Source: Patescibacteria group bacterium (lineage in GTDB: Bacteria > Patescibacteriota > UBA1384 > XYA2-FULL-43-10). From it: a stretch of 32,000 bases of DNA. The notes under the pieces were generated by a model. That model worked only from the letters and a program-made list of their open reading frames with translations, did no database searches and was not told the DNA's origin. The stretch spans positions 150,001 to 182,000 of the forward strand of contig JBAYVT010000001.1 in the NCBI GenBank assembly GCA_041674405.1. The letters run 5' to 3'. This document shows, piece after piece, positions 11,644 to 24,653 of this stretch (position 1 is its first letter; each line of letters opens with the position of its first letter). The position numbers were made by a program, and so were the translations under genes.

Positions 11644-11828
11644 GTTTAAAAACCAGTAATATATTTGTAGCATACACTTCAATATTAACTATAATTTGAG
11701 CAAAAACACAATTGATGATTCTCTAAATCATGAAGGAATCCTGATGGCTCAGCATATTAGTTGCATAACTATCCTTAAATAAAAACAGTTTGCAAGAGTA
11801 TCAACTCATCAAATTGTGGAAGGAAATA

Positions 11829-12848
11829 ATGGTAGAAGGAAAATTTTATTTTTCACATGAACATGAGCAGCATACAGGCTTTACAGACAGTGAAGGAAAT
11901 GATTGGGATGTACCTGGGCGGCTGGAGAAAATTGTCTCATGGATTGCCAGAAGGTATGGAGAAAATTATTTAAATGTTCTGCAAGAAATAAACGAGTCTG
12001 ATTTTATTGATATAATTCGGCGGGTTCACGAAGCCGAAATGATAGAGGAACTGAAACAAACTAGCCTAAGAGCAAAGGATGGCGAAGCCCTAATTACGTC
12101 ATTTGACTCAGATAAGGAAACGAGCGTTACTCCTGTTTCGAGACATACATATAAAAGCGCACTTGCTGCGGTAAAATGCTCTCTTTCAGCAGCCGAAATG
12201 TTGAAAAGCTCTCGGTCAAACCTTGCTGTCGCCTTATCACGCCCTCCAGGACATCACGCTGGGAAAAATTATTATCATGGTTTTTGTTACATGAACAATA
12301 TTGCTGTCGCAGCCGAATCTTTAAAAGAGGATGGAGAAAGAGTAGCAATTCTGGATATTGACGCTCATCATGGCGACGGAACTCAACAAATCTTCCAAGA
12401 TGACTCAAGCGTATTTTACTCTTCGCTTCACGCTGATCCAAATCTGGTGCTTCCGCATACCGGAAAGTCTGACGAGATCGGTAATGACGGAAGTATTTTG
12501 AATCTCCCTTATTCAATTGGTATCTCGACAGAAGAATATTTGACCTTGCTGAATTTTTCGCTTAAACATATCCAAATGTTTGACCCGCAATATCTGTTAA
12601 TATCGGCTGGATTTGATACCCACAAACGCGAATTTGAATCGATGGGCTTGCCACCAGTTACGCAGCTTGATTCACCCGACTACGAGGAGATAGGGCGGAT
12701 GATTGGATCATTGTCTTTGCCAACTGGGGTGGTTCTTGAAGGGGGTTACAACCAAACTGCGTTGAGCGAAGCTTTGATGAATTTTACTATTGGCCTGGAG
12801 AACAGCTTAAAAACCAAGCCATGCTTTGACTTTTTTGCTCTAAAGTGA
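11829..12848 (+). CDS. Histone-deacetylase-family amidohydrolase (AcuC / acetylpolyamine amidohydrolase-like)
   Basis: Motifs RPPGHHAG, DIDAHHGDGTQ, SAGFDTH and EGGYN. ATG 11829 is preceded by GGAAGGAAAT; the track start TTG 11790 is an alternative. The gene ends 13 nt before NRPS-1. Confidence 0.85.
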   Translation: MVEGKFYFSHEHEQHTGFTDSEGNDWDVPGRLEKIVSWIARRYGENYLNVLQEINESDFIDIIRRVHEAEMIEELKQTSLRAKDGEALITSFDSDKETSVTPVSRHTYKSALAAVKCSLSAAEMLKSSRSNLAVALSRPPGHHAGKNYYHGFCYMNNIAVAAESLKEDGERVAILDIDAHHGDGTQQIFQDDSSVFYSSLHADPNLVLPHTGKSDEIGNDGSILNLPYSIGISTEEYLTLLNFSLKHIQMFDPQYLLISAGFDTHKREFESMGLPPVTQLDSPDYEEIGRMIGSLSLPTGVVLEGGYNQTALSEALMNFTIGLENSLKTKPCFDFFALK

Positions 12849-12861
12849 GTATTATTTTGCT

Positions 12862-15800
12862 ATGTATAATGTTAAGCTACTACATGATTTTTTTGTGTTT
12901 CAGTCTCAAAAAAATCCCAATCAAATTGCCGTCGTTGATTTCAAAAAATCCTATACCTATAAAGAAATCGAAACAAGCGCTAATCGCCTTGCTTTTGAAT
13001 TGACCAGTCACTCCCCTGCGCTTCAACAGGATAAAATCGGATTTTTTACAGATCGTTCGGTTGATTCGATAATTATTATGCTTGGCATATTAAAATCAGG
13101 CCATGCTTTTGTTCCTATCGATCCCAACCTACCAGCAAAGCGCATCGAATATATTTGCGATAAAGCCACGATTAAAACTATCGTTTCAGGAAACACAGAA
13201 TATTATTCAAGCAAAAAACAAACAATTATTCACCTTCGGTCGATCATAACCGTCAAAGATTTCAAGTATAAAGAAATAAAAATTCCAGACGATAGAATTG
13301 CATATTGTCTATTTACATCAGGATCAACGGGGAGACCTAAGGGGGCGCTGATCAAACACTCCGGTATTGTACAATCTATTAAAAACTTTAAAAAGGCATA
13401 TCATTTTGATAAAAACAGCAAGGTACTTCAATTTGCTAGCCTATCGTATGATGCGTCCCTATCAGAGATTTTCCCAACTTTTGCTGCCGGTGGAACTATT
13501 TATATTCCGCCCAGAGAAGTGATTTTAGATATTGATAAGTTATCATCATACATTATCGAGTCAGGTATAACAGCAGCAATATTTCCGCCTACTGTTATCG
13601 GGCACCTTAACAAAGATTCTCTTTCTTCACTCTCAACTTTAGTGTCCGCAGGCGAAGAATGCCCTGCTGATTTAGCAAATAGAATGTATGAATTGGTTCC
13701 ACATTTTATTAACGCATACGGACCCACAGAAGCTTCAGTAGGAGTTACCACCTTTGAACTAGACCGGAAAATAAAAAATGCAGTTCCTATTGGCAAAGCT
13801 TTACCTGGATACAAGATTTATATATTAAACAAGGTTGGTCAAAGAGTCTCTATTGGCCAAATTGGCGAACTCTGTATAGGCGGCGTTGGAGTTTTTGCCG
13901 GTTATATCGGGGATAGCGCAAAAACTCACGAAGTTTTAATCCCTAATCCTTTTGGCGTCGGTTATCTGTATAAGACCGGCGATCTTGTAAAACAAGATGC
14001 GAATGGGCAAATTTATTATGTTGGAAGGAATGACTTTCAAATAAAATTACATAGCATTAGGATGAGCCCGGAAGAAATCGAAAGAGAAATTAAGAAGCTG
14101 CCAAAAATCAATGAATGCGTGGTTGTTGATGGATGTCTTGAAAGTAACAAGGAACACAAATTGGTCTGTTATTTTACTGCCTCAGAAGATTTAAATTTAA
14201 CAGTAACACGAGATATCCTTCGTTCCAAGTTGCAACCACATATGATTCCCCAGGTTTTCATCCATATTCCTTCAATGCCTCTGACCCCAAGCGGAAAAAT
14301 CGACCGACATGCACTTCAAATAAAACCCGTCAGAATAAAAACTGAGACAGATACTCTTAACGACAGCGTAATTTCTGACTCTCCAATAGCACGCATATGG
14401 AAAGATATTTTGGGCACGAACTCCGTGTCTCTTGAAGACAACTTTTTTGAATTAGGCGGATCATCTATCTCCGCCATGCGGATCGTCTCGAAGATTAATA
14501 AAAATACAGACTTTCATGCAAACATAAATTTAATTTTTGAATATCCTGTTTTTAATGATTTCGTTCGCGCCCTAGAAAAAGAAGCTTCAGAGACAGAAAA
14601 AGAACATGATAAGACATTTGCAGACCAAAAGTTAACAGACCCAGAAAAGTTATTTTGGGCCGCCAACTATACTTCCAAGAAACCGGAAGCATATACACTA
14701 ACTGAAGTGTTTGAACTTAATGGACAAATAAATACAAACAGACTTCAAAGAAGTTTCGAGTTTCTAATTAGTCAATTTCCTAAATTACGCACCAATTTCA
14801 GATTTAGGTTCGATAAAATTGAAAAAGTGATTAAAAATGAAAAATCATATCCGTTCTGTCTCCGTGATTATTCAAATCTGGATATCTCCAGAGCAAGAAA
14901 AAAGGCCAGGCAAACCCAGGAACATATTGCCAACATTCCCATGGATCTGGAAAAAGACTGGCTCTTTGTAGCCTATTATTTGAAATTGTCTGAAGTAGAA
15001 GGACTGCTGATCTTCCATGCCCATCACATTGTTATGGACGCCAGAGCAATGGAAATTATATCTAAAAAATTTTGGGATTATTATGAACACCATCAAGATT
15101 ACAAGTTGGTGGAAAATATTAATTCTATGCATTCACAACCTACAGATGATGAAAAAACCTTTTGGAAAGAATATTTGTCCCGAGCAGATGATAATTTGAC
15201 TTCATTGCCATATGACAATCCCAAGAATGAAACAACAGAAAACAATGGAAAGACTATTATACATCCATTACCTTTGCGATTGGCCCGAGAAGGATCCAAA
15301 ACTGCTACGGCTCTAGGCATTACCCCTTTCTCTCTTTTTCGAAATATTTTTTCCTTACTCCTTCATCGTCTTTCAAATCAGGTTAATTTAACTGTTGGCA
15401 CGGCTGTCAGCCTGCGAGATGACAACAGTGAAAATGATATTGGTGTTTTCTTAAATACATTACCTATCCGGTCAACTTTGCGGAGCGGAGAACCAATAGA
15501 AAAATATCTAGTAAGACAAAATAAGGAATTTATACATTGCTTTAAACACAGGAACCTTTCACTACCTCATATTCTCAAACTAATTCAGAATGACTGCAAA
15601 AAAGACTCTCAGCCCCTATTTAATGTAATGTTTGATTATATTGCTGAAGAAGGCACTTCTAAGGTAATCGGTTTGCAAGTAAAACGTCAAAGGGCCTTTC
15701 CGGCAACTGCACTTTTTGATCTTACCCTCACGGTCAAAGAATTAAATTGCGGTTTTGAATTGCTGTGGGAATATAACACCAATCTATTTAACGAGAAAAC

Positions 15801-18800
15801 TCTTCGAAAATTTATGAATTGGTATGAAAATATCTTTCATAACTCAATCAATGATCTAAAACAAAATGCTTCTAAGATCGATTTTTTAACACAAAAAGAA
15901 AAACAGTTACTAGAAGATTTCAATTCTACTGATATAACGATTCCCAATTCTTGTTTTATCCAAGAATTTGAAAAGAATATCAGTAAATTTTCTGATAAGA
16001 TTGCGGCTACCAGTGGTGACAAAACCATAGATTACAAAACTCTCAATCAAAAAGCAAATATTTTAGCAAGGAAGCTCCTGGAACATAAAATCGGCATTAA
16101 TGATAAAATTGGCGTTTTAATGCCCAGAGGCATTGATCTGATCATCTCAATTCTTGCGATATGGAAAGTACGAGCCGTTTATGTTCCTCTTGAACCGGAT
16201 TTTCCAGATGATAGGATCCGGCAAATGTCAATGCAAGCAAATCTTTCATGTATAATTTCCAAAAATGAATATAGCAGAGAGAGGGTGATCACTGAGGTGC
16301 CTTTTTTGCATTTTGATAGCGTGCAAAAAAAGAAGGAAGCAGATATGGAAAATTTAAATATCCGCGGATCGATGAATGATCTTGTATATGTTATTTTTAC
16401 CTCTGGATCGACAGGCAAACCCAAGGGGGTGATGATAGAACAGTTGGGGATGGTTAATCATTGCAATGAAATGATTAAATTTTTTCACCTTAAAGAAAAT
16501 ACCATTATGGCACAAACAGCCTCTCATTGTTTTGATATCTCTATATGGCAATTAGTTGCCCCTTTGCTAATTGGAGGCAAAATTATAATCTACTCGAAAG
16601 ATCATCAGCTGAATCTAAAGGCACTCTTTGAGTCAATTATTGAAGATAAAATCACGATCGCTGAACTTGTTCCTTCGTATCTATTTGCTCTACTTGAACA
16701 TATCAATCATCATGTCAATAACAATAGGCTTAATGATCTTTGCCACATGCTGACAACCGGCGAGGCTGCTTCTAATAAACTTGTTGAGAGTTGGTACGCT
16801 ATTTATCCTGAAATCCCCCTTACCAATGCCTATGGGCCAGCGGAAGCATCTGATGACACCAATCTGTACACTTTGACAAAACAAGAAGCCATTCCCAATA
16901 CGCCTATTCCCGTTGGTAAACCAATAGGAAATGTCAAGATTTACATTCTTGACTCATTTTTAAATAGGTGCCCTATCGGCATAAAAGGTGAAATTTATAT
17001 CTCTGGAATTGCAGTCGGAAAAGGGTATATAAATGATCATGAAAAGACTAAGGCAGCATTTCTCACCAACCCTTTCTCTGGCAACAAAGAACGGATGTAT
17101 AAAACAGGAGACATTGGAAGCTGGAATAGCGATGGAACTATCAACTTTTATGGTCGCACTGATTTTCAAGTAAAAATCAGAGGATATAGAATAGAGCTTG
17201 AAGAGATCGAGAACCAAATTGAAGATATCCCTTATGTCAGTCAGGCTGTAATTATTGTAAAAAACTTTGGTAACTCGAAGCAGTTATATGCATTCATTAC
17301 TGGTCAGGGGCAGATCGAAGAGAATCCCATACGAAGTTCGCTTCAAGCCAAACTTCCGGCCTACATGATTCCCCAAAGAATAATTCAGTTGAATGAAATA
17401 CCGCTAAATCATAATGGCAAGGCAGACCGAAAGTTATTATCTAAAATTGATATTGCTAATCACCAAGAGAAGCTTGATAAAGTTTTGTCTGAGAAACAAC
17501 AAATTTTGCTTGAGACCTGGAAATCAATATTTAAAGATAACGAAATTACCATAAATGACAATTTTTTTGACCTCGGAGGAGACTCAATTTCCAGCATACA
17601 GATAATCTCAAGATTGTTATCTCAGGGCTACGAGCTAGATATTGAAAATTTTTTTGCACACCCGACAATATGCCAACTCGCCTCTTTTGTGATTAAAAAA
17701 CAATACATTGGATCGATCCCCATTTCGGAAAAACCATTCTTTCTCACTCCAATTCAAAAATCTTTTCTAGAAAAGTCGCTCGGTAATCCAAATTGGTATA
17801 ACCAGTGTGTAGTAATTGAAGGCAAGAAATGGAATACAGAGAAATTAAAAGAATCGCTTTTACACACACTTAAAGCGCATCCGGCATTTTCATTACGTTT
17901 TAATAATTTCGAACAGCAATATATAAAGTCTGTTGATTTTTCCAAATACATCTTTGAGTACTCGGCTGATGAACTTAACGATGAGCAGATTCTTTCAAAC
18001 ATGAATAAGATGATTAATATTAAAGAGGGTCCGATTATCGTGGCTACAATTTCAGATAAAGGAAACTCGGAATTTAAATTATTTATAGTGGCTCATCATT
18101 TGATAATAGACGCTTTTTCATGGAGCATATTCATAGACGATCTAGAAAAAAACTATCATAACGCCCTACTAGAAAATAATCATAACCAGAAAAGTCTCGG
18201 CTCAAATTTGCATGAATGGGCTACATACCTAGAAAAAAGATCTTTTAAGAAGATTGTTTCAAGCAGATTGCCATATTGGGAAAAAATTCTAAAAGACAAT
18301 AAGATACCGATTTCATCTTCAATTCCGCAAAAAAACAACGGAAATCATCGAATAATTTCCTTAGGAGCAAATGCAAATTTTTCAAAAAAAATTGCTGACT
18401 TCATAGCAAACAATAGCTCACTAAAGCTAGAACATTTAGTTATATCAATTTTAACACGAGCTCTCTGTAAATGGCTCGCATCTGACGAAATTGCCGTTAT
18501 GCTTGAACGGCATGGGCGCAGCCATGTTCCTAATAATTTCAATATTAGTCGAACAATTGGCTGGTTTACAGTCATTCATCCTTTTCTGGTTAAATTAAAT
18601 ATGGACGGAAATATAGCCCAAGCACATGCAATCGCTAAAGATCTTGAGAATTTGAAAGATGATGGAATTAGTTATGGCCTTCTGAAATATAGGGGCAGCA
18701 TGAATAATCCGCTCAAAAAAATTCCAGAACCTGATATTGCGATAAACTTTCTTGGGGAGATGTGTAGGGCGAATTCAAACGGTTATTTTTCCAATTACAA

Positions 18801-19095
18801 GCTTATTCCAGACCAAACAGTTGATCCGCGACGCCAGTTAGAATATAAATTGGAAATAAATACTTATCTGGTAGAAGGCCGATTGGTTATTGAGTGTACC
18901 TATGACCAAGAATGCTTTCCGATATCTTTGATGAATCAATTGGTGGAGGAAATTGAAATAAACATCAAAAATCTGAGTGCCGAAATTGACAGTTCTAAAA
19001 GAGATAAAAAAATTGAGATGCCAACTTCCAGTTTTAGCAATGAGAGGTTGTCAGAAATTCAAAATAGGTTAGCCGGGACGATTAGCAATGGGTAA
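12862..19095 (+). CDS. Non-ribosomal peptide synthetase 1, domain order A-T-C-A-T-E
   Basis: A1 (~12862-14320): FTSGSTGRPKG, NAYGPTE, YKTGD, PSGKIDR. T1: FFELGGSSIS (Ser codon 14464-14466). C1 (~14620-15900): HHIVMD at 15022-15039. A2 (~15950-17440): FTSGSTGKPKG, NAYGPAE, YKTGD, NGKADRK. T2: FFDLGGDSIS (Ser codon 17584-17586). E (~17730-19000): LTPIQKSF, AHHLIIDAFSW (18094-18111), ERHGR, RTIGWFT, INFLGE. Confidence 0.97.
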   Translation: MYNVKLLHDFFVFQSQKNPNQIAVVDFKKSYTYKEIETSANRLAFELTSHSPALQQDKIGFFTDRSVDSIIIMLGILKSGHAFVPIDPNLPAKRIEYICDKATIKTIVSGNTEYYSSKKQTIIHLRSIITVKDFKYKEIKIPDDRIAYCLFTSGSTGRPKGALIKHSGIVQSIKNFKKAYHFDKNSKVLQFASLSYDASLSEIFPTFAAGGTIYIPPREVILDIDKLSSYIIESGITAAIFPPTVIGHLNKDSLSSLSTLVSAGEECPADLANRMYELVPHFINAYGPTEASVGVTTFELDRKIKNAVPIGKALPGYKIYILNKVGQRVSIGQIGELCIGGVGVFAGYIGDSAKTHEVLIPNPFGVGYLYKTGDLVKQDANGQIYYVGRNDFQIKLHSIRMSPEEIEREIKKLPKINECVVVDGCLESNKEHKLVCYFTASEDLNLTVTRDILRSKLQPHMIPQVFIHIPSMPLTPSGKIDRHALQIKPVRIKTETDTLNDSVISDSPIARIWKDILGTNSVSLEDNFFELGGSSISAMRIVSKINKNTDFHANINLIFEYPVFNDFVRALEKEASETEKEHDKTFADQKLTDPEKLFWAANYTSKKPEAYTLTEVFELNGQINTNRLQRSFEFLISQFPKLRTNFRFRFDKIEKVIKNEKSYPFCLRDYSNLDISRARKKARQTQEHIANIPMDLEKDWLFVAYYLKLSEVEGLLIFHAHHIVMDARAMEIISKKFWDYYEHHQDYKLVENINSMHSQPTDDEKTFWKEYLSRADDNLTSLPYDNPKNETTENNGKTIIHPLPLRLAREGSKTATALGITPFSLFRNIFSLLLHRLSNQVNLTVGTAVSLRDDNSENDIGVFLNTLPIRSTLRSGEPIEKYLVRQNKEFIHCFKHRNLSLPHILKLIQNDCKKDSQPLFNVMFDYIAEEGTSKVIGLQVKRQRAFPATALFDLTLTVKELNCGFELLWEYNTNLFNEKTLRKFMNWYENIFHNSINDLKQNASKIDFLTQKEKQLLEDFNSTDITIPNSCFIQEFEKNISKFSDKIAATSGDKTIDYKTLNQKANILARKLLEHKIGINDKIGVLMPRGIDLIISILAIWKVRAVYVPLEPDFPDDRIRQMSMQANLSCIISKNEYSRERVITEVPFLHFDSVQKKKEADMENLNIRGSMNDLVYVIFTSGSTGKPKGVMIEQLGMVNHCNEMIKFFHLKENTIMAQTASHCFDISIWQLVAPLLIGGKIIIYSKDHQLNLKALFESIIEDKITIAELVPSYLFALLEHINHHVNNNRLNDLCHMLTTGEAASNKLVESWYAIYPEIPLTNAYGPAEASDDTNLYTLTKQEAIPNTPIPVGKPIGNVKIYILDSFLNRCPIGIKGEIYISGIAVGKGYINDHEKTKAAFLTNPFSGNKERMYKTGDIGSWNSDGTINFYGRTDFQVKIRGYRIELEEIENQIEDIPYVSQAVIIVKNFGNSKQLYAFITGQGQIEENPIRSSLQAKLPAYMIPQRIIQLNEIPLNHNGKADRKLLSKIDIANHQEKLDKVLSEKQQILLETWKSIFKDNEITINDNFFDLGGDSISSIQIISRLLSQGYELDIENFFAHPTICQLASFVIKKQYIGSIPISEKPFFLTPIQKSFLEKSLGNPNWYNQCVVIEGKKWNTEKLKESLLHTLKAHPAFSLRFNNFEQQYIKSVDFSKYIFEYSADELNDEQILSNMNKMINIKEGPIIVATISDKGNSEFKLFIVAHHLIIDAFSWSIFIDDLEKNYHNALLENNHNQKSLGSNLHEWATYLEKRSFKKIVSSRLPYWEKILKDNKIPISSSIPQKNNGNHRIISLGANANFSKKIADFIANNSSLKLEHLVISILTRALCKWLASDEIAVMLERHGRSHVPNNFNISRTIGWFTVIHPFLVKLNMDGNIAQAHAIAKDLENLKDDGISYGLLKYRGSMNNPLKKIPEPDIAINFLGEMCRANSNGYFSNYKLIPDQTVDPRRQLEYKLEINTYLVEGRLVIECTYDQECFPISLMNQLVEEIEINIKNLSAEIDSSKRDKKIEMPTSSFSNERLSEIQNRLAGTISNG

Positions 19096-22042
19096 AATTA
19101 ATTCTATAAAAATTGAAGCTGCCTATCCGTTATCCCCTGTTCAAAAAGGTATATTATTCCAATCAATTGCGAGCCCACAAGCACAGTTGTATGTGGAACA
19201 AATGGCAGTTAAAATCACAGGCAAACTAAATATTAGAGCATTTAAAGAGTCGTGGCGGCTATTGGTACAAAACAACCCTATTTTTCGTACCTTATTTGAT
19301 TACAGAAACGGAAACGAACCACTCCAATTTGTAATTGATAATTTAAATGTGAACTTTATCTATAAGGATTTATCTAATTTAACTTCCAGAGAATTTGAAA
19401 GTTGTTGGCTGAATTATCAGACAAAGGACCGCTCGAGAGGCTTTGAACTCGAATTAAGAGCTCCCTACCGTTTGGCGATTTTTAAGATAAACGATTCAAA
19501 CTTCCGATTTTTATTCAGTTATCATCACATATTACTTGACGGTGGCTCAATTCCAATCATCATACATGACATTGCTTACTACTACTCAGAAATTGTTGCT
19601 GGCAGGACCCCCAAAACCATCATGAATAAAACCTATAAAGAATATGTAATTTGGTTGTCAGGGCAAAATCAAAAGACCGCAAAAAAATTTTGGGAAGAAT
19701 ATTGTCAGAACTTTAGAGTGAACTTTAACAAAAAGGGAACCGAACTGAAAACAACTCTAAGTTCATCCAAATCTCTAACATTCGACCATAATATTTGTGA
19801 CAGACTAAAAGTTATTAGTCGAACTAATAGCTTAACCCTGGCAAGTATATTAACTGGAATATGGGGTATTGTATATTGCTCATTTTGTAATCGTGATGAA
19901 ACAATTCTTGGCATTCCAACTTCCGTTCAGCCACTAGATAAATCAGGGGGCGATTTTATCGGTGTATGCATAAATACCATTCCGCTAAAAGTCAGGCTTA
20001 CTAATGTATCGTATTTAAAAGTGATTAGAAGAGTTCAGGAAGATTGGTATAAAACAAATCAATATAACCATTTGCCTTTAGGTGAAATTAAAAAATTATT
20101 TTCAGGTTACGATCTTAACGATCCTTTTGACTCTATCTTTGCTTTTTCATCACACAAACAGGATAACCATATTTTTAAAGGAGTGAACTGGGAATTACTA
20201 GACCACCTGGAATCAACACCATACCCTATCTCTACCGATCTTGTTTGGTCGGATAGTTCAATGCTATTAAAAATTACCTATCGGCCCGAGTTTTATAGCA
20301 GCGAAGAGATTGAAATTTTATTAGAAGACTTCAAGAAAAAACTAAATAATTTTTTGAATAATCCGGAAGAAAGTGTTGTGATTTACAAAATAAAGCGTCA
20401 AAATCTCTTACCCCAGTCAAAAAAGTATGACGATTCTGGGGTCAAACTCAAATATAATCCGATGATCTTGAATACATTAATCGGAGTTTGGAAAAATCTT
20501 TTTCCAGGTAATATCATCGATACTGATAGTAATTTTTTTGAACTCGGAGGAGATTCAATCACCTCGTTACGGTTAGTATCAAAACTTTTAACCCTTGGTA
20601 TTAAAATAACTCCTCAAGACATTTTTGAATATCAAACTCCTGGAAAAATAGCCAGTAAAATATTCTCTGACCGCCTTAAGCCAGGCAAAAAAGCTGATAT
20701 CAAAACAAAGAATAAAAAAACAATTCCGAAAGCAGTGATGGATTTTACTACGAGTCTATATGGTAGTCAGCTAGAAAAAGTACTTCCGGTTTCAAATGTG
20801 CAGAAAGGACTTCTCGAATCAGGCCAGAAAGAAGATCTATTTCATGACCAATCAACTTTTACTTACACGGGCAATCTGGATCACATGATTTTTGAATCGG
20901 CCTGGAACAATGTCATAAAACGGAATAGTTCACTCCGTGCATTCTTCTGTAAAGTTGAAAGAAATTGGTATCAATGCACTATTAAACATTCACACATTAG
21001 ACTTGACTACATCGATATCTCTCAGAAGTCGACAAAAAATAAGGATACTTTTATCAAAAAAGCGATTCATGACGATCGCCTTAAATCTTTTTCTGTTGAA
21101 AATGGGCCATTGATTCGCATCTCTCTTTTTAAATTAGATAAAAAAGAATTTAAATTTTTTCTCCGATTTCATGTGCTTATAATGGATGGGTGGTGCTTTG
21201 CTTTTGTTTTAAAAGAGATTATGGACGAGTATGACGCACTGATGCGGAAGACTGAGTTCCATCCCGTAAAAAGGCCTTCATATGAGAAATATATCGAATG
21301 GCTAAGCACCAAAGATATATCAGAGGCAAAAAAATACTGGACAAAATACCTAAGCGGGACTAAGTCAGCCTTATCAATTCCGCGAGAAGTGACCAAAGAT
21401 AATTCATTATCATATGATGTCAAAATGAACCTGATTGATCTGCCTGATCAGCTATTGATAAGGCTCGGCACCTTGGCAGCTAAACATAAGGTAACATTAA
21501 ATACTTTATTTCAGACAGCCTGGGCTATTAATTTATGCCGCTTTAGACAGACAAAAGAGGTTGTGATAGGAATAACTGTCTCTCAGCGCCCAGCTGGTTT
21601 GAAAGGCTCGGAGGAAATTATTGGACTATTTTTTAATGATATTCCCTTAAGGTTTCAATTCAAAAATAACTATAATTTTTGGAAAGCAGCAAAAGCAATA
21701 CAAAAAGATTTTCAAAACAGTAATGATTATCAATATCTGTCAGCCTACGAGGTTAAAAGAGAATTGGGGCTGAAACAAACTGAAGACTTATTCCAGACAC
21801 TACTTGTATATGAAAATTACCCCAAACAGCAAGAAGATGCCCTAAAATCAAAACAGCAAAATTATTTTGTAAATACAGGTTATTGGCGAAGAGAGATGTC
21901 TGATATCGATCTAACAGTATATATTGAAACACGCACAAGCAACGGACACATAAAAGGGTGTTATCTCGACAAGCTAATATCTGACGATACAGCTTCGTCT
22001 GTCCTTAATGGTTTTTTAGCTGAGTTAAATAAAATTAAATAA
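19088..22042 (+). CDS. Non-ribosomal peptide synthetase 2, domain order C-T-C (no adenylation domain, no thioesterase)
   Basis: It overlaps the NRPS-1 stop by 8 nt. C2 (~19100-20400): YPLSPVQKGILF and HHILLDG (19523-19543), a DCL-like N-terminus that fits the upstream E domain. T3: FFELGGDSITS (Ser codon 20555-20557). C3 (~20770-22042): PVSNVQKGLL and the variant FHVLIMDG (21167-21190). Confidence 0.95.
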   Translation: MGKINSIKIEAAYPLSPVQKGILFQSIASPQAQLYVEQMAVKITGKLNIRAFKESWRLLVQNNPIFRTLFDYRNGNEPLQFVIDNLNVNFIYKDLSNLTSREFESCWLNYQTKDRSRGFELELRAPYRLAIFKINDSNFRFLFSYHHILLDGGSIPIIIHDIAYYYSEIVAGRTPKTIMNKTYKEYVIWLSGQNQKTAKKFWEEYCQNFRVNFNKKGTELKTTLSSSKSLTFDHNICDRLKVISRTNSLTLASILTGIWGIVYCSFCNRDETILGIPTSVQPLDKSGGDFIGVCINTIPLKVRLTNVSYLKVIRRVQEDWYKTNQYNHLPLGEIKKLFSGYDLNDPFDSIFAFSSHKQDNHIFKGVNWELLDHLESTPYPISTDLVWSDSSMLLKITYRPEFYSSEEIEILLEDFKKKLNNFLNNPEESVVIYKIKRQNLLPQSKKYDDSGVKLKYNPMILNTLIGVWKNLFPGNIIDTDSNFFELGGDSITSLRLVSKLLTLGIKITPQDIFEYQTPGKIASKIFSDRLKPGKKADIKTKNKKTIPKAVMDFTTSLYGSQLEKVLPVSNVQKGLLESGQKEDLFHDQSTFTYTGNLDHMIFESAWNNVIKRNSSLRAFFCKVERNWYQCTIKHSHIRLDYIDISQKSTKNKDTFIKKAIHDDRLKSFSVENGPLIRISLFKLDKKEFKFFLRFHVLIMDGWCFAFVLKEIMDEYDALMRKTEFHPVKRPSYEKYIEWLSTKDISEAKKYWTKYLSGTKSALSIPREVTKDNSLSYDVKMNLIDLPDQLLIRLGTLAAKHKVTLNTLFQTAWAINLCRFRQTKEVVIGITVSQRPAGLKGSEEIIGLFFNDIPLRFQFKNNYNFWKAAKAIQKDFQNSNDYQYLSAYEVKRELGLKQTEDLFQTLLVYENYPKQQEDALKSKQQNYFVNTGYWRREMSDIDLTVYIETRTSNGHIKGCYLDKLISDDTASSVLNGFLAELNKIK

Positions 22043-22043
22043 C

Positions 22044-22709
22044 ATGATTAATATCGAAGTTTTAATAATAAGCTGGTCAGAGTCATACGCCCAACAAATT
22101 GACTCTGTTCAACTTCATTGTACAGATGAAGAAAAAGAGAGAGGAAAAAAATTTAAAAAAGAAACTGACAGGGCAGCTTACTTGCTTTGGTGCTCGTATA
22201 TTAGAGAAGCCTGCTCTAAAATGATTGGGATATCACCTGCTTTGATTTCAATTTCTAGGGATAATTATGGCCGACCATTTTTAACCGACTACTCGAATAA
22301 AATTGATTTTAATATATCACATAGCGGATCAAAACTCGCAATTGGTATAAGTACCGACGGTAAAATAGGTGTTGACTTGGAAAAAATTATTCCGATAGAC
22401 ATTAGGGAAATTCAGAAATTTTTCACCCGCGAGGAAATGTCATATATTGATCATTCCAGAACCAATAAAACTCAGCGACTTTTTCAAGTCTGGACATCAA
22501 TAGAGGCCTATTCAAAATTACTGGGTATCGGCCTTGATAAACAGATTAAAAAACGTATTTTTACACTATTAAATAAAGATCAGGCATTAATACAACATGC
22601 CGGATCGCCTATCTTCGTTAACTCTTTCAAGTGCAATAAATATATACTCTCAGTTGCTAGCAAAAATAGAAATTTTAAGGTAAATCTAAACAAAATTGAC
22701 TTGGGCTGA
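22044..22709 (+). CDS. Sfp-type 4'-phosphopantetheinyl transferase
   Basis: ISHSGSKLAIGIS, GKIGVDLEKI and FTREEMSYI...VWTSIEAYSKLLG match the PPTase motifs. It starts 1 nt after the NRPS-2 stop. Confidence 0.85.
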   Translation: MINIEVLIISWSESYAQQIDSVQLHCTDEEKERGKKFKKETDRAAYLLWCSYIREACSKMIGISPALISISRDNYGRPFLTDYSNKIDFNISHSGSKLAIGISTDGKIGVDLEKIIPIDIREIQKFFTREEMSYIDHSRTNKTQRLFQVWTSIEAYSKLLGIGLDKQIKKRIFTLLNKDQALIQHAGSPIFVNSFKCNKYILSVASKNRNFKVNLNKIDLG

Positions 22710-22713
22710 TTGT

Positions 22714-23952
22714 TCAGAAAAGGTTGGCTAAAACAGAGCCCAGCAAATCAAAAGCCTGTTTAAGCTCCTGCTCAGTTATTAATAATGACGGAGCGATTTT
22801 TAGATAATCACCGTTAATCCCAGAAGTTTGGATAATCAAACACTTCTCAAAAGCTCTCTTTTTAACTAAGGCGGCAATTTTTGAACTAGGTGTCTGTATG
22901 CCGCACGCCAGGCCAACAACACTGGTCTTAAGAACAATTGTTGGATATTCCTGATGTAATTGGCTCATCAAAGTTCGAAATAGTATGGATTTCGCCTGGA
23001 CCTTCTCAAAAATTTTTTGATCACTGATCATTCGCACAACTTCACGGGCAATACTGATACCAAAAGCATTATTAGAAAAAGTTGAATCTAATCCAGATTT
23101 ATCAGGGCCGATATTGTCAAAATATTCTTTTCGGGCAATTATGGCACTCAAGGGATAGTATCCACCAGCAAGTGATTTACCAAGTAAGACAATATCTGGT
23201 TGAAAATTATAACGCTCAAAAGAATAAAATGAACCGGTACGACCTATCCCGGCTTGAATCTCGTCTGCGATAATAATGATTTGGTGGTGGTTCGCTATTT
23301 CCTGTAATTTTTCGAAAAAATAACGCTCTGTTTCTCTAAAACCCGCTGCACCTTGCACTGGTTCGAGAATTATTGCACCAATTTTCTCCCTATATTTAAA
23401 AATAAGGTCTTCTAGTTGAGTTAGGGCTACATCAATTGAGGGTCCAATATTAATATCAGGGAAAGGCAAATGAAATATTTGCATATTTTGTATTGTATCG
23501 TAACTCTCATTAAAATATCCACGATCAGTTATACCGATTAATCCATTAATATACCCGTGAAATGCACCGTCAAAACTAATAACACCGTGTCTTTTAGTAA
23601 ATATACGTGCCAACTTAATACTCACATCAACAGCTTTGGCACCTCCAACCGTATAGTATACTTGATAATCTTTGCCGGGAAACGGAAGATGATCTATTAA
23701 TTCACCACTAAGATCATCTCGTTCACTTGTATTAAAAGCTGGGAAGTTATCCAGACGCTCGGCAGCCTTTTTAACCGCTTTAACTATAGTCGGGTTACAG
23801 TGGCCAAAATTAGTAGAACTATATGCCATCACAAGGTCAAGATAGGGCTTATCTTGACCGTCAAACCATATGTAACTTCCTTGTGCTTTTTTTACTAATA
23901 AGTTTGGGTTATAAATCCCAATTTCATCGGTTATTGGCAGCAGATTGTTCAT
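22714..23952 (-). CDS. Class-III PLP aminotransferase, ornithine-aminotransferase (RocD/OAT)-like
   Basis: AYSSTNFGHCNPTIV, GGAKAVDVSIKLAR, IIADEIQAGIGRTGSFYSFE and PDIVLLGKSLAGGYYPLSA (PLP lysine). The track ORF runs to 24120, but that extension overlaps the GNAT gene. ATG 23952 (MNNLLPITDE) is the likely start. Confidence 0.85.
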   Translation of the reverse strand: MNNLLPITDEIGIYNPNLLVKKAQGSYIWFDGQDKPYLDLVMAYSSTNFGHCNPTIVKAVKKAAERLDNFPAFNTSERDDLSGELIDHLPFPGKDYQVYYTVGGAKAVDVSIKLARIFTKRHGVISFDGAFHGYINGLIGITDRGYFNESYDTIQNMQIFHLPFPDINIGPSIDVALTQLEDLIFKYREKIGAIILEPVQGAAGFRETERYFFEKLQEIANHHQIIIIADEIQAGIGRTGSFYSFERYNFQPDIVLLGKSLAGGYYPLSAIIARKEYFDNIGPDKSGLDSTFSNNAFGISIAREVVRMISDQKIFEKVQAKSILFRTLMSQLHQEYPTIVLKTSVVGLACGIQTPSSKIAALVKKRAFEKCLIIQTSGINGDYLKIAPSLLITEQELKQAFDLLGSVLANLF

Positions 23953-24505
23953 TTTTATTTTTCCAATCTTTTTTAGATAAAACCGCTTCCCAACCGTCAT
24001 ATAATTTTCCATCAATAAAAGCGGCCGCAGGTTTAATGCCATATTCCTTAAAACCAAGTTTTTCAAACACTCGGCGGCTAGCAATATTAGGTTCAAAAAT
24101 AATGGCAAATAAATATTCAAGATTAAGTTCAGAAAAGGCGTATTTAATCACACATTGTTCTACAATGGCTGCAATTCCATCGCCCCAATAATTTTTGTTC
24201 CCGATCATGATCCCAGTAAATGCGGTGGCTTCAGGAAATTGAATATCATGGAGCCAAACAGCACCCACGCAAACATCCTCTACGGTTATCTGCCACATGC
24301 ACCATTGATTTGAAGACTGAAATTCTTTTAATCGTATATTTTCTTTGTTTTCATCTGTTTTTTCTGCATGAGGATCTAGCAATCGCATAACCTCAGCATC
24401 ATTTAGCCAAGACACCAATAGAGCTGTGTTTTTTGTTTCAGGTTGAACTATAAAAATTTCCCGATTCTTTTTGTCTTTTCCGCAAAAGATTTTTTGTCCA
24501 AACAT
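23924..24505 (-). CDS. GNAT N-acetyltransferase, RimJ/RimL-like
   Basis: GNKNYWGDGIAAIVEQCVIKYAFSELNLEYLFAIIFEPNIASRRVFEKLGFKEYG. Its 3' end overlaps the aminotransferase start by 29 nt. Confidence 0.8.
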   Translation of the reverse strand: MFGQKIFCGKDKKNREIFIVQPETKNTALLVSWLNDAEVMRLLDPHAEKTDENKENIRLKEFQSSNQWCMWQITVEDVCVGAVWLHDIQFPEATAFTGIMIGNKNYWGDGIAAIVEQCVIKYAFSELNLEYLFAIIFEPNIASRRVFEKLGFKEYGIKPAAAFIDGKLYDGWEAVLSKKDWKNKNEQSAANNR

Positions 24506-24562: not shown

Positions 24563-24653
24563 TCATGACCATAAATTATTATCGATTTGAGCCTTTAAAA
24601 AATATGCGTCACCAGACAAAGAGATCTAAAATTTGTCAGATAGTTGTACTACC

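What the first reader, a model, noticed from the sequence alone, without database searches (positions are those of the whole stretch)
11790..24505. Compact NRPS locus (A-T-C-A-T-E plus C-T-C, own PPTase, no thioesterase) set among minimal housekeeping genes
Seen in sequence: four plus-strand genes are tightly coupled, with a 13-nt gap, an 8-nt overlap and a 1-nt gap. They encode an HDAC-family amidohydrolase, a 2077-aa NRPS, a 984-aa NRPS and an Sfp-type PPTase. An overlapping GNAT plus OAT-like aminotransferase pair converges on them. All three carrier domains keep the GGxS serine, and the C and E domains keep the catalytic His. Base composition looks the same as in the flanking aaRS genes, which argues the locus is native rather than recently imported. 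Inference: short overlapping genes, AT-richness, aaRS oddities and absence of biosynthetic genes give a reduced-genome (Patescibacteria-like) impression. NRPS chemistry is rarely reported in such lineages. The predicted product would be a short peptide (about 3 residues, D-configured at position 2) with a non-standard release step.
Basis: partly seen in the sequence, partly recalled or inferred. Interest (0 to 1): 0.85.

Follow-up and report, generated by a model that had tools for sequence, protein, structure and literature searches.

The report
Conserved peptide synthetase in CPR bacteria
A complete non-ribosomal peptide assembly line, kept intact by natural selection and carrying its own activating enzyme, sits in the small genome of a Patescibacteria (CPR) bacterium and recurs in about 15 related CPR sequences, a group thought to make almost no such compounds.

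Summary
The locus is real and sits at the stated coordinates: HDAC-like deacetylase, NRPS1 (A-T-C-A-T-E), NRPS2 (C-T-C) and an Sfp-type PPTase, with a convergent GNAT + class-III aminotransferase pair and no TE or R domain. The last C domain (C3*) lacks the catalytic His (HHxxxDG becomes F-H-V-xxx-DGW). The third module also has no A domain.

The host is Patescibacteria. The proteins are identical to NCBI MAG entries MFA7243845-48 on a 395-kb contig. The flanking LeuRS groups with Patescibacteria/Berkelbacteria. Composition shows no break at the cluster borders.

The cluster is not an orphan. I found about 15 distinct homologues and 9 loci with gene context, and every informative label is Patescibacteria or Saccharibacteria. 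All share the architecture, an invariant A2 code (DIWE[L/I]TADDK, acidic pocket, so a basic residue), the His-less but conserved C3* (dN/dS 0.145), and a catalytically intact HDAC.

The accessory enzymes all act on amines: SpeG-like GNATs, an APAH/HDAC-like deacetylase, an omega-transaminase, and in Saccharibacteria an Orf1-like N-formimidoyl synthase. The likely product is a small cationic peptide containing a D-residue, released without a thioesterase. No publication describing it was found. I rate it a new variant of a known kind.

The parts
10912..11682 (-). SAM-dependent methyltransferase (TehB-like), divergent from the HDAC gene. Possible accessory gene of the window-type cluster.
   Evidence: Pfam TehB/Methyltransf_25. 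A 58%-identical orthologue sits in the same position in L003. Absent from Saccharibacteria-type clusters, so membership is uncertain.
11790..12848 (+). HDAC/acetylpolyamine-amidohydrolase-type Zn deacetylase. It is the best-conserved accessory gene of the family.
   Evidence: Pfam Hist_deacetyl 1.3e-64. Closest solved relatives are HDAC6, several acetylpolyamine amidohydrolases and HDAC10. The catalytic HH dyad, D-x-H and D Zn ligands and GGY Tyr are conserved in all 6 aligned clusters. Identity to Saccharibacteria-type and L014 copies is 41-46%. dN/dS is 0.034.
12862..19095 (+). NRPS1, 2077 aa, domain order A1-T1-C1-A2-T2-E.
   Evidence: Pfam and motif positions. Orthologues are present in L003 and L005-L008, and as a fusion with NRPS2 in P0278.
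12862..14331 (+). A1 adenylation domain (initiation, no preceding C domain). Specificity code DASIVAAVGK, aromatic/Tyr-like.
   Evidence: Code extracted by MAFFT alignment against GrsA-PheA, with the reference self-checking as DAWTIAAICK. D235 and K517 are present. Saccharibacteria-type copies read DGS(I/V)VAAICK.
14374..14586 (+). T1 carrier domain (LGGSSIS).
14629..15921 (+). C1 condensation domain (HHIVMDA), LCL-like and divergent.
   Evidence: Best solved matches are Txo2, LgrA and TycC at E about 1e-17 to 1e-18.
15949..17451 (+). A2 adenylation domain. Code DIWELTADDK, with three acidic pocket residues (E278, D330, D331), which predicts a basic substrate.
   Evidence: The code is invariant (L/I at one position) in all six clusters aligned, and the same signature is present in L014 and P0278. 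A2 is the most conserved domain (43% between cluster types; dN/dS 0.067).
17494..17697 (+). T2 carrier domain (LGGDSIS, the type that precedes E domains).
17719..19092 (+). E epimerisation domain (HHLIIDAFSW, ERHGR, RTIGWFT, INFLGE).
   Evidence: The second His is retained in all family members.
19088..22042 (+). NRPS2, 984 aa, C2-T3-C3*, with no A domain. Overlaps the end of NRPS1 by 8 nt.
   Evidence: AlphaFold model has mean pLDDT 80, with both C-fold halves at 80-94.
19088..20407 (+). C2 condensation domain, DCL type, with intact HHILLDG.
   Evidence: Best solved matches are C domains that accept D-configured donors: McyB 2e-54, BacC, SrfA-C and TycB.
20450..20677 (+). T3 carrier domain (FFELGGDSITS) that has no cognate A domain.
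   Evidence: The Ser is invariant in 13 members. T3 is the most conserved non-A domain (42-46% between types). It is more similar to T2 than to T1 in 4 of 5 clusters.
20753..22039 (+). C3*, a terminal condensation-like domain that lacks the catalytic His.
   Evidence: The alignment register is fixed against solved C domains. The motif is F[H/N/S][V/I/L]xxxDGW in 15 members. The family-specific motifs GLFFND[ILVM]P, L[FY]HDQS and WRR are conserved. It is more conserved than C1, C2 and E. dN/dS is 0.145.
21167..21193 (+). Degenerate active-site motif F694-H695-V696-L-I-M-D700-G701-W702 of C3*.
22044..22709 (+). Sfp-type 4'-phosphopantetheinyl transferase.
   Evidence: Pfam AASDHPPT_N + ACPS. Nearest NCBIfam models are HetI and AusB, both below cutoff. 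Contains the KIGVDLE motif. Present next to NRPS2 in 8 of the 9 loci; absent in L014.
22714..23952 (-). Class-III (omega) aminotransferase, convergent on the PPTase with a 4-nt gap.
   Evidence: Pfam Aminotran_3. Closest solved relatives are GABA-AT/PuuE, AcOrn-AT, DABA-AT, OAT and putrescine-AT. No NCBIfam equivalog reaches its cutoff. Orthologues are present in L003 (70%) and L004 (55%), with a candidate in L015 (28%).
23924..24505 (-). GNAT1 N-acetyltransferase (Acetyltransf_3), translationally coupled to the aminotransferase.
   Evidence: Pfam. Weak similarity to SpeG spermidine/diamine N-acetyltransferases. 66-70% identical in L003 and L004; about 27% to the GNATs of L005 and L015.
24790..25278 (-). 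GNAT2 (Acetyltransf_1/7/10, FR47). A possible further member of the cluster.
   Evidence: Same Pfam profile as the GNAT that sits directly upstream of NRPS1 in all Saccharibacteria-type clusters and in L014, with 25-30% identity to them. A terminator-like hairpin at 24681-24658 separates it from GNAT1, so membership is uncertain.

Best explanation
This is a functional accessory biosynthetic locus of a Patescibacteria (CPR) bacterium. It belongs to a small NRPS family that so far appears restricted to CPR.

SHOWN BY SEQUENCE
- One assembly line runs A1-T1-C1-A2-T2-E | C2-T3-C3*.
- It has its own Sfp-type PPTase, which is needed because it must convert three carrier domains to the holo form.
- There is no thioesterase or reductase domain.
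- The accessory genes all belong to amine-handling enzyme families.

INFERRED MECHANISM
1. A1 loads an aromatic, Tyr/Phe-like amino acid with a free N-terminus.
2. A2 has a pocket with three acidic residues and loads a basic residue, most likely a short diamino acid of the Dab/Orn type. The adjacent omega-aminotransferase could supply it.
3. C1 joins the two residues, and E epimerises residue 2.
4. The DCL-type C2 accepts the resulting L,D-dipeptidyl chain.
5. The chain leaves through the A-less C2-T3-C3* unit rather than a thioesterase. T3 and C3* are the best-conserved non-adenylation parts, yet C3* has no catalytic His. It must therefore act by substrate positioning or as a scaffold, not by canonical base-assisted condensation.

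THREE DOCUMENTED PRECEDENTS FIT THE RELEASE STEP (I cannot yet choose between them)
(a) A2 also loads T3, giving a tripeptide that is released by C3*. This resembles the A-less T-C units of ferrichrome-type synthetases.
(b) A GliP-like C-T couplet forms a diketopiperazine.
(c) A glidonin/VibH-like C domain captures a free di- or polyamine.

TAILORING
The GNAT(s) and the catalytically intact HDAC/APAH-type deacetylase put an acetyl group on a free amine of the precursor or product and take it off again. This would serve as self-protection or as a protecting group. Saccharibacteria versions also carry an Orf1-like enzyme that converts an amine to an N-formimidoyl amidine.

PRODUCT
The product is therefore a small cationic peptide containing a D-residue. 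It is probably exported (ABC exporters flank some copies) and acts on the host bacterium or on competitors.
For: - Architecture and motifs.
- A natural fusion protein, P0278, has the order A-T-C-A-T-E-C-T-C* and proves a single assembly line in this order.
- Family: about 15 distinct C-T-C* proteins and 9 loci with the same core of NRPS1, NRPS2, HDAC and GNAT, plus a PPTase in 8 of the 9.
- Purifying selection acts on every gene and domain: dN/dS 0.03-0.31, with C3* at 0.145 against C2 at 0.155.
- T3 (42-46%) and C3* (33-37%) are more conserved than C1, C2, E, T1 and T2 (22-31%) between the two cluster types.
- A2 code DIWE(L/I)TADDK is invariant at about 32% overall identity. A1 code DASIVAAVGK matches the Tyr code DASTVAAVCK (recalled from the Stachelhaus table) at 8 of 10 positions.
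- The E domain is intact and C2 groups with DCL domains.
- HDAC catalytic residues are intact in all copies, and its closest relatives are acetylpolyamine amidohydrolases and HDAC6/10.
- GNAT1 is nearest to SpeG. The AT is nearest to GABA, putrescine, DABA and ornithine omega-transaminases.
- The DAO-like gene of Saccharibacteria-type clusters matches N-formimidoyl-transferring Orf1 at E = 6e-67 (PMC10156733).
- Release precedents: glidonin C13-A*-T13 and 'C-T di-domain' putrescine units (PMC10587159); the GliP CT-T3 couplet (PMC11610984 and PMC11942691).
- Exporters lie next to L006 and L015.
- CPR host.
Against: - There are no expression, chemical or biochemical data.
- Neither A-domain code matches any published code that could be searched, so substrate calls rest on pocket chemistry and on codes recalled from memory.
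- Nothing in any of the 9 loci can obviously load T3.
- C3* lacks the residue usually considered catalytic, so a purely structural role cannot be excluded.
- GNAT assignments are weak (E 1e-6 to 1e-8).
- The aminotransferase reaches no equivalog cutoff and is missing from several Saccharibacteria-type loci.
- The window carries no transporter.
- In Saccharibacteria-type copies C1 reads HHxxxS and E reads NHxxxD, so some steps may differ between types.
- Several contigs are unlabelled, and one is labelled Dongiaceae.
Confidence: 0.62

Rival explanations
1. Release sub-model B (nested within the best explanation). A2 loads both T2 and T3. C2 forms an aromatic-D-Xaa-Xaa tripeptide on T3. C3* releases it without a general base, for example by positioning the side-chain amine of the last basic residue to form a lactam, or by hydrolysis.
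For: T3 keeps its Ser in all 13 aligned members and is the most conserved non-A domain. T3 resembles T2 more than T1 in 4 of 5 clusters. A2 is the most conserved domain and has an invariant code. C3* is under the same constraint as the catalytic C domains. A-less T-C units loaded by an upstream A domain are known from fungal ferrichrome-type synthetases (from memory, not checked here).
Against: There is no direct evidence of in-trans or iterative loading. C3* belongs to the DCL clade, but module 3 has no E domain. A His-less C domain acting as a cyclase has no characterised precedent that I could verify.
Confidence: 0.25
2. Release sub-model C (nested). The product is a two-residue diketopiperazine, cyclo(L-aromatic, D-basic). 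It is formed on the A-less C2-T3 couplet as in fungal GliP, with C3* as an extra cyclisation or release helper. The side-chain amine is then acetylated, deacetylated or formimidoylated.
For: There are only two A domains in every member, including the fused P0278. The order A-T-C-A-T followed by an A-less C-T matches GliP, where CT and T3 are both required for cyclisation. L,D-dipeptidyl thioesters cyclise readily (general chemistry). The tailoring enzymes all target amines.
Against: C2 is a bacterial DCL-type domain, not a fungal CT. GliP has no third C domain. The strong conservation of C3* is left unexplained.
Confidence: 0.18
3. Release sub-model A (nested). C2 acts as an amide synthase that releases the L,D-dipeptidyl chain onto a free diamine or polyamine, as with glidonin C13 or VibH. 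T3-C3* are structural. GNAT and HDAC mono-protect and then deprotect the polyamine.
For: Putrescine-adding NRPSs end in 'C-T di-domains', 'C-A*-T-TE' or 'C' alone, with the downstream domains needed only for stability (PMC10587159). C2 has an intact HHxxxDG. The accessory enzymes resemble SpeG, acetylpolyamine amidohydrolase and putrescine/GABA transaminases.
Against: T3 and C3* are more conserved than C2 itself, which is not expected for purely structural padding. The Ser of T3 is invariant. No polyamine-biosynthesis gene lies in the clusters.
Confidence: 0.17
4. The HDAC-family gene is not a tailoring enzyme but a resistant copy of the product's target. On this reading the NRPS product would be an inhibitor of HDAC/APAH-type deacetylases, following resistance-gene-in-cluster logic.
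For: The HDAC gene is the most conserved accessory gene and is present in all 8 loci that cover its expected position. Many NRPS products inhibit HDACs (general knowledge). dN/dS is very low at 0.034.
Against: No zinc-binding warhead chemistry (thiol, hydroxamate, epoxyketone) is encoded. Co-occurrence with one or two GNATs fits an acetylation/deacetylation cycle better. It is unknown whether the genomes hold a second, housekeeping HDAC.
Confidence: 0.07
5. The cluster makes a siderophore or metallophore.
For: Small NRPSs without a TE, with ornithine-type residues and acetyltransferases, are typical of hydroxamate siderophores. GNAT1 of L005 and L015 also hits Acetyltransf_8, the IucB-type family.
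Against: None of the 9 loci contains an N-hydroxylating monooxygenase, catechol or salicylate genes, a TonB-type receptor or a siderophore-uptake gene. The A2 pocket is acidic, which favours a free cationic side chain rather than an N-acyl-N-hydroxy one.
Confidence: 0.06
6. Artefact: the NRPS belongs to another organism (mis-binning or an assembly chimera), or it is a decaying, non-functional relic of a transfer.
For: MAG-derived sequence. One homologous contig is labelled Dongiaceae. Some copies sit next to a recombinase or R-M genes.
Against: The NRPS lies between CPR-type IleRS/LeuRS and other genes on a single 395-kb contig. Tetranucleotide composition is uniform. The junctions are identical in independent assemblies. 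All reading frames are intact in 9 loci, with dN/dS 0.03-0.31. The 'Dongiaceae' contig is 84-94% identical to an unclassified 'bacterium' contig (L006) whose nearest labelled relatives are Saccharibacteria, and it has 48% GC.
Confidence: 0.04

Closest known systems
Dimodular bacterial NRPS with its own PPTase, e.g. aureusimine AusA (A-T-C-A-T-R) + AusB
   Same: Two A domains, the A-T-C-A-T core and a dedicated Sfp-type PPTase next door. AusA and AusB are among the best NCBIfam hits.
   Different: Scores are far below the equivalog cutoffs (878 vs 2500 bits; 63 vs 225 bits). This locus has no reductase release. It adds E, C2, T3 and C3*, and it comes with amine-tailoring genes.
Glidonin-type / VibH-type amine-capturing condensation domains (PMC10587159)
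   Same: TE-independent release by a C domain placed after the last loaded carrier. Downstream A-less or inactive A*/T domains are retained. 'C-T di-domain' termination units are described for putrescine-capped peptides.
   Different: In glidonin the acting C13 needs the second His for substrate positioning. Here C2 has it and the terminal C3* does not. T3 and C3* are more conserved than C2. No amine substrate is known.
Fungal GliP CT-T3 couplet for diketopiperazine formation (Baccile et al. 2019, cited in PMC11610984 and PMC11942691)
   Same: A-T-C-A-T followed by an A-less C-T pair that is required for release. Only two A domains.
   Different: This system is bacterial. C2 is DCL-type, preceded by an E domain and followed by a further C-like domain. 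No sequence relationship to fungal CT domains was detected.
Glycopeptide X domain and other C-like domains with degenerate His motifs
   Same: A conserved C-fold domain near the end of the assembly line whose HHxxxDG motif has lost the catalytic His, which implies a non-condensing role.
   Different: The X domain reads HRxxxDD and recruits P450s (from memory). C3* keeps D-G-W and has its own motifs (GLFFNDxP, YHDQST, WRR). No P450 or other obvious partner is found in any of the 9 loci. C3* derives from the DCL clade.
Acetylpolyamine amidohydrolase / HDAC6 / HDAC10 with SpeG-type acetyltransferases
   Same: The HDAC protein has every catalytic and Zn-binding residue, and its closest solved relatives are these enzymes. 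GNAT1's closest solved relatives are SpeG and diamine acetyltransferases.
   Different: Identity is low and the GNAT hits are weak. The genes are embedded in an NRPS cluster rather than in polyamine catabolism. The substrate is unknown.
Orf1, the FAD-dependent N-formimidoyl synthase of BD-12/fortimicin-type antibiotics (PMC10156733)
   Same: The 472-515 aa DAO-family gene of the Saccharibacteria-type clusters matches it at E = 6e-67 over about 417 residues. It modifies a primary amine of a cationic antibiotic.
   Different: It is not present in the window's cluster. The context is an NRPS rather than an aminoglycoside or streptothricin pathway.

Membership tests
Modular (type I) non-ribosomal peptide synthetase | Adenylation domains with core motifs A3, A5, A7, A8 and A10, including the alpha-amino-binding Asp235 and Lys517 | tested here: met
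   Two AMP-binding domains. Motifs are listed. D235 and K517 are present in both A domains.
Modular (type I) non-ribosomal peptide synthetase | Carrier domains with the phosphopantetheine-accepting Ser (GGxS) | tested here: met
   GGSS (T1), GGDS (T2), GGDS (T3). The T3 Ser is invariant in 13 members.
Modular (type I) non-ribosomal peptide synthetase | Condensation domains with an HHxxxDG active-site motif | tested here: inconclusive
   Met for C1 (HHIVMDA) and C2 (HHILLDG). NOT met for C3* (FHVLIMDG, Val at the catalytic position).
Modular (type I) non-ribosomal peptide synthetase | One A domain per carrier-containing elongation module (collinearity) | tested here: not met
   Module 3 (C2-T3) has no A domain in any of 15 members, including the fused P0278. 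No stand-alone A domain is present in any of the 9 loci.
Modular (type I) non-ribosomal peptide synthetase | Canonical terminal release domain (thioesterase or reductase) | tested here: not met
   No Thioesterase, Abhydrolase or NAD_binding_4 hit in NRPS1, NRPS2 or any flanking ORF, nor in the homologous loci.
Epimerisation domain followed by a DCL condensation domain | E domain with HHxxxD and E-specific motifs, followed by a C domain of the DCL clade | tested here: met
   E has HHLIIDAFSW, ERHGR, RTIGWFT and INFLGE. C2's best solved matches are McyB, BacC, SrfA-C and TycB at E 1e-43 to 2e-54, against 1.8e-12 for the LCL domain TycC.
Sfp-type 4'-phosphopantetheinyl transferase | Two-lobed AASDHPPT_N + ACPS architecture of about 220-240 aa with the (V/I)G(I/V)D and WxxxE(A/S)xxK motifs | tested here: met
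   Pfam PF22624 + PF01648. KIGVDLE and WTSIEAYSK are present. HetI and AusB models hit below cutoff.
Amide-synthase-type releasing C domain (VibH / glidonin C13) | C domain after the last loaded carrier with an intact second His, using a free amine as acceptor | tested here: inconclusive
   C2 meets the sequence criterion and C3* does not. Acceptor identity cannot be tested with these tools.
Glycopeptide-type X domain | C-like domain with HRxxxDD that recruits P450 (Oxy) enzymes encoded in the cluster | tested here: not met
   C3* reads F[H/N/S][V/I/L]xxxDGW. No P450 gene is present in any of the 9 loci.
Heterocyclisation (Cy) domain | DxxxxD in place of HHxxxDG | tested here: not met
   The first position of C3* is H, N or S, never D.
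Class II HDAC / acetylpolyamine amidohydrolase Zn deacetylases | Catalytic His-His dyad, Asp-His-Asp zinc ligands, catalytic Tyr | tested here: met
   PPGHHA, DIDAHHGDG, AGFD and GGYN are conserved in all 6 aligned copies. Pfam 1.3e-64. PDB neighbours. The substrate is not testable here.
EctA/EctB (DABA acetyltransferase + DABA transaminase) pair | Equivalog-level match to EctB (TIGR02407) and to EctA | tested here: not met
   EctB model scores 208.5 bits against a cutoff of 552. The GNAT has no EctA hit. Only the gene order (GNAT then AT) is similar.
Candidate phyla radiation (Patescibacteria) genome | Housekeeping genes on the same contig that group with Patescibacteria | tested here: met
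   The proteins carry the NCBI label. All named close LeuRS relatives are Patescibacteria or Berkelbacteria and share the NUDIX insertion.

The most novel reading that the evidence does not exclude
CPR bacteria maintain their own anciently diverged NRPS pathway. It is present in at least two classes, a Berkelbacteria-like lineage and Saccharibacteria. Its termination unit (A-less T3 plus the His-less C3*) would be a new class of thioesterase-independent release or cyclisation catalyst. Its cationic, D-residue-containing product, switchable by acetylation, would mediate the episymbiont's interaction with its host bacterium (attack, attachment or signalling).
Probability: 0.33. Interest if true: 0.85.

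Novelty: new variant of a known kind. Interest (0 to 1): 0.7.

Why it matters
CPR/Patescibacteria are ultra-small, mostly episymbiotic bacteria. The median soil MAG is 0.78 Mb (PMC10640626). Surveys report only a few RiPP or terpene clusters in them, or none at all (PMC7298704, PMC11613949, PMC8694215).

A 12.7-kb NRPS locus would take up more than 1% of such a genome. Here it is kept under purifying selection in two distant CPR lineages. That implies the product matters for their lifestyle, and it gives a concrete, clonable handle on the chemistry between a CPR bacterium and its host.

For NRPS enzymology, the family offers a naturally conserved C-like domain that has lost both His residues of HHxxxDG yet is more constrained than its catalytic neighbours. 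It is coupled to a carrier domain with no A domain. This is a compact system (about 3,060 aa) for studying non-canonical chain release.

The invariant, unpublished A-domain code DIWE(L/I)TADDK is a testable specificity prediction.

Tried and rejected
- Rfam and tRNA scans of the window found nothing.
- PADLOC found no defence-system relationship for the accessory genes.
- Literature search for the two Stachelhaus strings gave zero hits. My initial feeling that DIWELTADDK was a known code is unsupported.
- Synteny test for an insertion site failed. Relatives' LeuRS neighbourhoods (L011-L013) are ordinary CPR housekeeping blocks and are not syntenic with the window, so no insertion boundaries could be defined.
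- The metagenome-contig scan with the C3 alignment returned no relative, even though JGI 3300037067 carries the locus.
- The exhaustive profile search was dominated by giant multi-C-domain NRPSs. Only single-stretch hits were informative.
- I first thought the aminotransferase (window type) and the DAO-like enzyme (Saccharibacteria type) were functional substitutes. I rejected this because L015 has both and the DAO-like enzyme is an Orf1-type formimidoyl synthase.
- The cyanobacterial C-TauD-T-x proteins, the next-best full-length hits, do not end in a C3*-like domain.
- The promoter/terminator scan showed no enrichment over shuffles.
- AlphaFold plus Foldseek only confirmed two C folds. Domain arrangement is unreliable at pTM 0.48.
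- Plasmid and phage searches gave only generic C-domain similarity (at most 29% identity) or nothing.

Full report
OBSERVATION
They belong to the stated families:
- HDAC-family amidohydrolase, 11790-12848
- NRPS1, 12862-19095, 2077 aa
- NRPS2, 19088-22042, 984 aa
- Sfp-type PPTase, 22044-22709
- a convergent class-III aminotransferase and a GNAT

The 13-nt gap, 8-nt overlap and 1-nt gap are exact. Domain order is A1-T1-C1-A2-T2-E and C2-T3-C3. All three carrier serines are present. No thioesterase or reductase domain occurs anywhere in the 32 kb.

Two corrections are needed. First, the aminotransferase almost certainly starts at 23952 (412 aa, as in its homologues and in other gene calls). Second, and more important, the last C domain does not keep the catalytic histidine. 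It reads RFHVLIMDGW, and alignment to solved C domains (BacC, McyB, TycB: HHilLDGW) places Val at the second His position. Module 3 also has no adenylation domain.

LINEAGE AND AUTHENTICITY
NRPS1, NRPS2 and the PPTase are identical in sequence to NCBI proteins MFA7243846-48, labelled 'MAG: Patescibacteria group bacterium', on a 395,669-bp contig. The HDAC protein falls in the same 90%-identity cluster as MFA7243845, which uses a shorter start call.

As an independent test, I searched the flanking LeuRS (bacterial leuS equivalog, 936 bits). Every named close relative is Patescibacteria or Candidatus Berkelbacteria, and dozens share its NUDIX insertion.

The cluster-vs-flank tetranucleotide correlation is 0.96, the same as left-vs-right flank at 0.962. 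The same gene order and junctions are present in a Logan assembly (identical over 22,268 nt) and in a JGI assembly (2 mismatches in 8,709 nt).

THE CLUSTER IS A FAMILY, NOT AN ORPHAN
Homologue searches gave about 15 distinct full-length C-T-C proteins of 947-988 aa, plus one natural fusion. I used a 5.8-billion-protein search, a GTDB genome scan with the C3 alignment, and an exhaustive profile search. The fusion, P0278, is 3017 aa with the order A-T-C-A-T-E-C-T-C. It shows that NRPS1 and NRPS2 are one assembly line in that order.

Gene context is available for nine loci:
- Window type (window, L003, L004): HDAC, NRPS1, NRPS2, PPTase, then convergent AT and GNAT1.
- Saccharibacteria type (L005-L008, L015): DAO-like oxidoreductase, (DUF2087), GNAT2, NRPS1, NRPS2, PPTase, then convergent HDAC. 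L015 also carries the AT-GNAT1 pair and an ABC/FtsX exporter.
- L014 is a third arrangement.

All informative labels are Patescibacteria, Candidatus Saccharibacteria or Candidatus Microsaccharimonas. The one 'Dongiaceae' contig (L007) is 84-94% identical to L006, an unclassified 'bacterium' contig whose nearest labelled relatives are Saccharibacteria. It has 48% GC and is probably mis-binned.

The nearest non-family proteins share only 24-30% identity over single C domains. Nothing similar is on plasmids or phages. The family is rare: only three hits among the GTDB species representatives. Some copies lie next to a serine recombinase or restriction-modification genes. I therefore read it as a long-resident accessory trait exchanged within CPR rather than a core trait.

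IS IT FUNCTIONAL?
All reading frames are intact in every locus. Between the two closest clusters with DNA (L006 and L007), dN/dS is:
- NRPS1 0.144; NRPS2 0.166
- A2 0.067; C1 0.138; C2 0.155; C3 0.145
- HDAC 0.034; Orf1-like gene 0.031

Between the two cluster types (about 32% overall identity), the ranking by conservation is:
- A2: 43%
- T3: 42-46%
- A1: 35-38%
- C3: 33-37%
- C1, C2, E, T1 and T2: 22-31%

The A-less carrier and the His-less C domain are thus the most constrained non-adenylation parts, which argues against their being vestigial.

ANATOMY AND INFERRED CHEMISTRY
Specificity codes were read from a MAFFT alignment to the GrsA-PheA core.
- A1 is DASIVAAVGK (DGS(I/V)VAAICK in the Saccharibacteria type). 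This matches the Tyr code DASTVAAVCK, as I recall it, at 8 of 10 positions, so the substrate is aromatic.
- A2 is DIWE(L/I)TADDK in every member examined, including L014 and P0278. Glu278, Asp330 and Asp331 make an acidic pocket, and Trp239 makes it short.
- From memory, the nearest known pattern is the Dab/Orn type (DVGEISAIDK / DVGEIGSIDK). I therefore infer a basic, probably short diamino acid.
- Neither string occurs in the searchable literature.

E has all its motifs, and C2 groups with DCL domains, so residue 2 should be D-configured.

C3 also derives from the DCL clade. Across 15 members its motif reads F[H/N/S][V/I/L]xxxDGW, so neither histidine is required. D-G-W, GLFFND[ILVM]P (canonical GLFxNTxP), L[FY]HDQS and WRR are conserved. 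Of about 120 nearest C-domain relatives, essentially all keep HH.

An AlphaFold model gives confident C folds for both halves (pLDDT 80-94) but no reliable domain arrangement.

ACCESSORY ENZYMES
All of them handle amines.
- The HDAC protein keeps the His-His dyad, the Asp-His-Asp zinc ligands and the catalytic Tyr in every copy. Its closest solved relatives are HDAC6, acetylpolyamine amidohydrolases and the polyamine deacetylase HDAC10.
- GNAT1 is weakly nearest to SpeG and diamine acetyltransferases.
- The aminotransferase is nearest to GABA/PuuE, acetylornithine, DABA, ornithine and putrescine transaminases, with no equivalog-level assignment.
- The DAO-like gene of the Saccharibacteria-type clusters matches Orf1, the N-formimidoyl fortimicin A synthase, at E = 6e-67. 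Orf1 is an FAD enzyme that transfers a glycine-derived formimidoyl group to a primary amine of a cationic antibiotic (PMC10156733).

Together with the acidic A2 pocket, this points to a product that carries a free amine which can be acetylated, deacetylated or amidinated. I interpret the conserved GNAT/HDAC pairing as an acetyl on/off cycle (self-protection or a protecting group). This is an inference.

RELEASE
With no TE or R domain, the chain must leave through C2-T3-C3*. Three documented precedents fit:
(a) A-less T-C units loaded iteratively by an upstream A domain, as in ferrichrome-type synthetases (from memory). This would give a tripeptide.
(b) The GliP CT-T3 couplet, required for diketopiperazine formation after an A-T-C-A-T core.
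(c) Amine capture by a C domain in termination units described as 'C-T di-domains', 'C-A*-T-TE' or 'C' (glidonin, PMC10587159).

The strong conservation of T3 and C3*, and the greater similarity of T3 to T2, slightly favour (a). The sequence cannot decide. In all three cases C3* would act without the canonical His. I could not find a characterised equivalent of that. The X domain of glycopeptide synthetases is the nearest concept, but its defining features are not met.

COMPARISON AND NOVELTY
The parts are all known kinds: NRPS domains, an Sfp-type PPTase, an HDAC-fold deacetylase, GNATs and a class-III aminotransferase. Four things are new:
- the host range (CPR);
- a conserved cluster family shared by a Berkelbacteria-like lineage and Saccharibacteria;
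- an unpublished, invariant A-domain code;
- a termination unit that combines an A-less carrier with a conserved His-less C domain.

In the searchable literature, CPR genomes are reported to have only RiPP or terpene clusters (PMC7298704, PMC12153355), no NRPS/PKS in cultivated Saccharibacteria (PMC8694215), or no BGCs at all (PMC11613949). No paper describing this family was found. Automated antiSMASH surveys may nonetheless have counted such clusters without comment.

I classify it as a new variant of a known kind, with interest 0.70.

LIMITS
No chemistry or expression data exist. Substrate calls rest on pocket residues and on remembered reference codes. The GNAT assignments are weak. The window contains no transporter. 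The lineage rests on database labels and one marker protein rather than a full phylogeny.

Noticed in passing
window 6110-9553 (-): The LeuRS (1147 aa) carries two insertions. One is a NUDIX domain (aa 570-687) that dozens of Patescibacteria/Berkelbacteria LeuRS clusters share. The other is an extra ~180-aa segment (aa ~245-425) with a Pol-beta nucleotidyltransferase-like signature (GYCGN...DVDLG) and a weak Pfam hit to ANT(2'') Aminoglyc_resit (22.9 bits, E 1e-4). Among the homologues listed, at least P0127 (59% identity, 1151 aa, 100% query coverage) clearly has the long form.
   Followed up: partly
window 3285-3770, 7492-7843, 10334-10768, 26776-27285: Four NUDIX domains lie within 32 kb: three stand-alone hydrolases plus the LeuRS insertion. 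Around the NRPS cluster there are also several small GNATs, methyltransferases, an APH-type phosphotransferase and a CN-hydrolase. The neighbourhood looks like a detoxification or accessory region rather than a purely housekeeping one.
   Followed up: no
window 1-2538 (-): An IleRS gene runs off the start of the window (at least 846 aa visible), so the ORF tool does not list it. GC is locally higher in the two aaRS genes (GC3 0.45-0.46) than in most neighbours (0.28-0.42).
   Followed up: partly
L007 (DATMTU010000124.1): This 18-kb contig is deposited as 'Dongiaceae bacterium' (SMAG_U13021). It carries a Saccharibacteria-type cluster 84-94% identical in protein sequence to L006 and has 48% GC. 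It is most likely a mis-binned CPR contig.
   Followed up: partly
L005 1876-3300; L006 249-1700; L007 156-1703; L008 250-1668; L015 1863-3293: Saccharibacteria-type clusters carry a close homologue (E 6e-67) of Orf1, the N-formimidoyl fortimicin A synthase. That enzyme makes amidines on cationic antibiotics. It is absent from the window's cluster.
   Followed up: partly
P0278 (3017 aa, representative library): A natural single-polypeptide fusion of NRPS1 and NRPS2 (A-T-C-A-T-E-C-T-C*), with C3 motif SFNVIIMDGW and the same A2 signature. Its genomic context could not be looked up.
   Followed up: partly
L006 13156-14133 (-); L015 14863-17555 and 18733-21852; L005 1-881: Several family members sit next to mobility or defence genes: a large serine recombinase, a type I R-M helicase subunit and a DNA methylase. 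Some also sit next to ABC exporters (a DrrA-like ATPase, and an ABC + FtsX permease). This hints at horizontal exchange and at export of the product.
   Followed up: no
window 24565-24888 (+) and 24658-24681 (-): A 107-aa ORF with no family hit overlaps the 3' end of GNAT2 by 99 nt and may be spurious. A terminator-like hairpin (9-bp stem, T-run) lies between GNAT2 and GNAT1 on the minus strand.
   Followed up: no
L003 913-1251; L005 3297-3557; L014 8216-8521; L015 3290-3559; L008 1665-2441 (fused to GNAT2): A small DUF2087 protein accompanies the cluster in five loci and is fused to GNAT2 in L008. It is missing from the window. It may be a regulator or a GNAT partner.
   Followed up: no
P0015 (Xenococcus sp. 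PCC 7305, aa 1068-1495) and P0067: Two unrelated NRPS proteins also have a last C domain in which the second His is replaced (RHFIVADGW, AHLMILDGW). They keep the canonical GxxxNTLP motif. His-less terminal C domains may be more widespread than is usually assumed.
   Followed up: no
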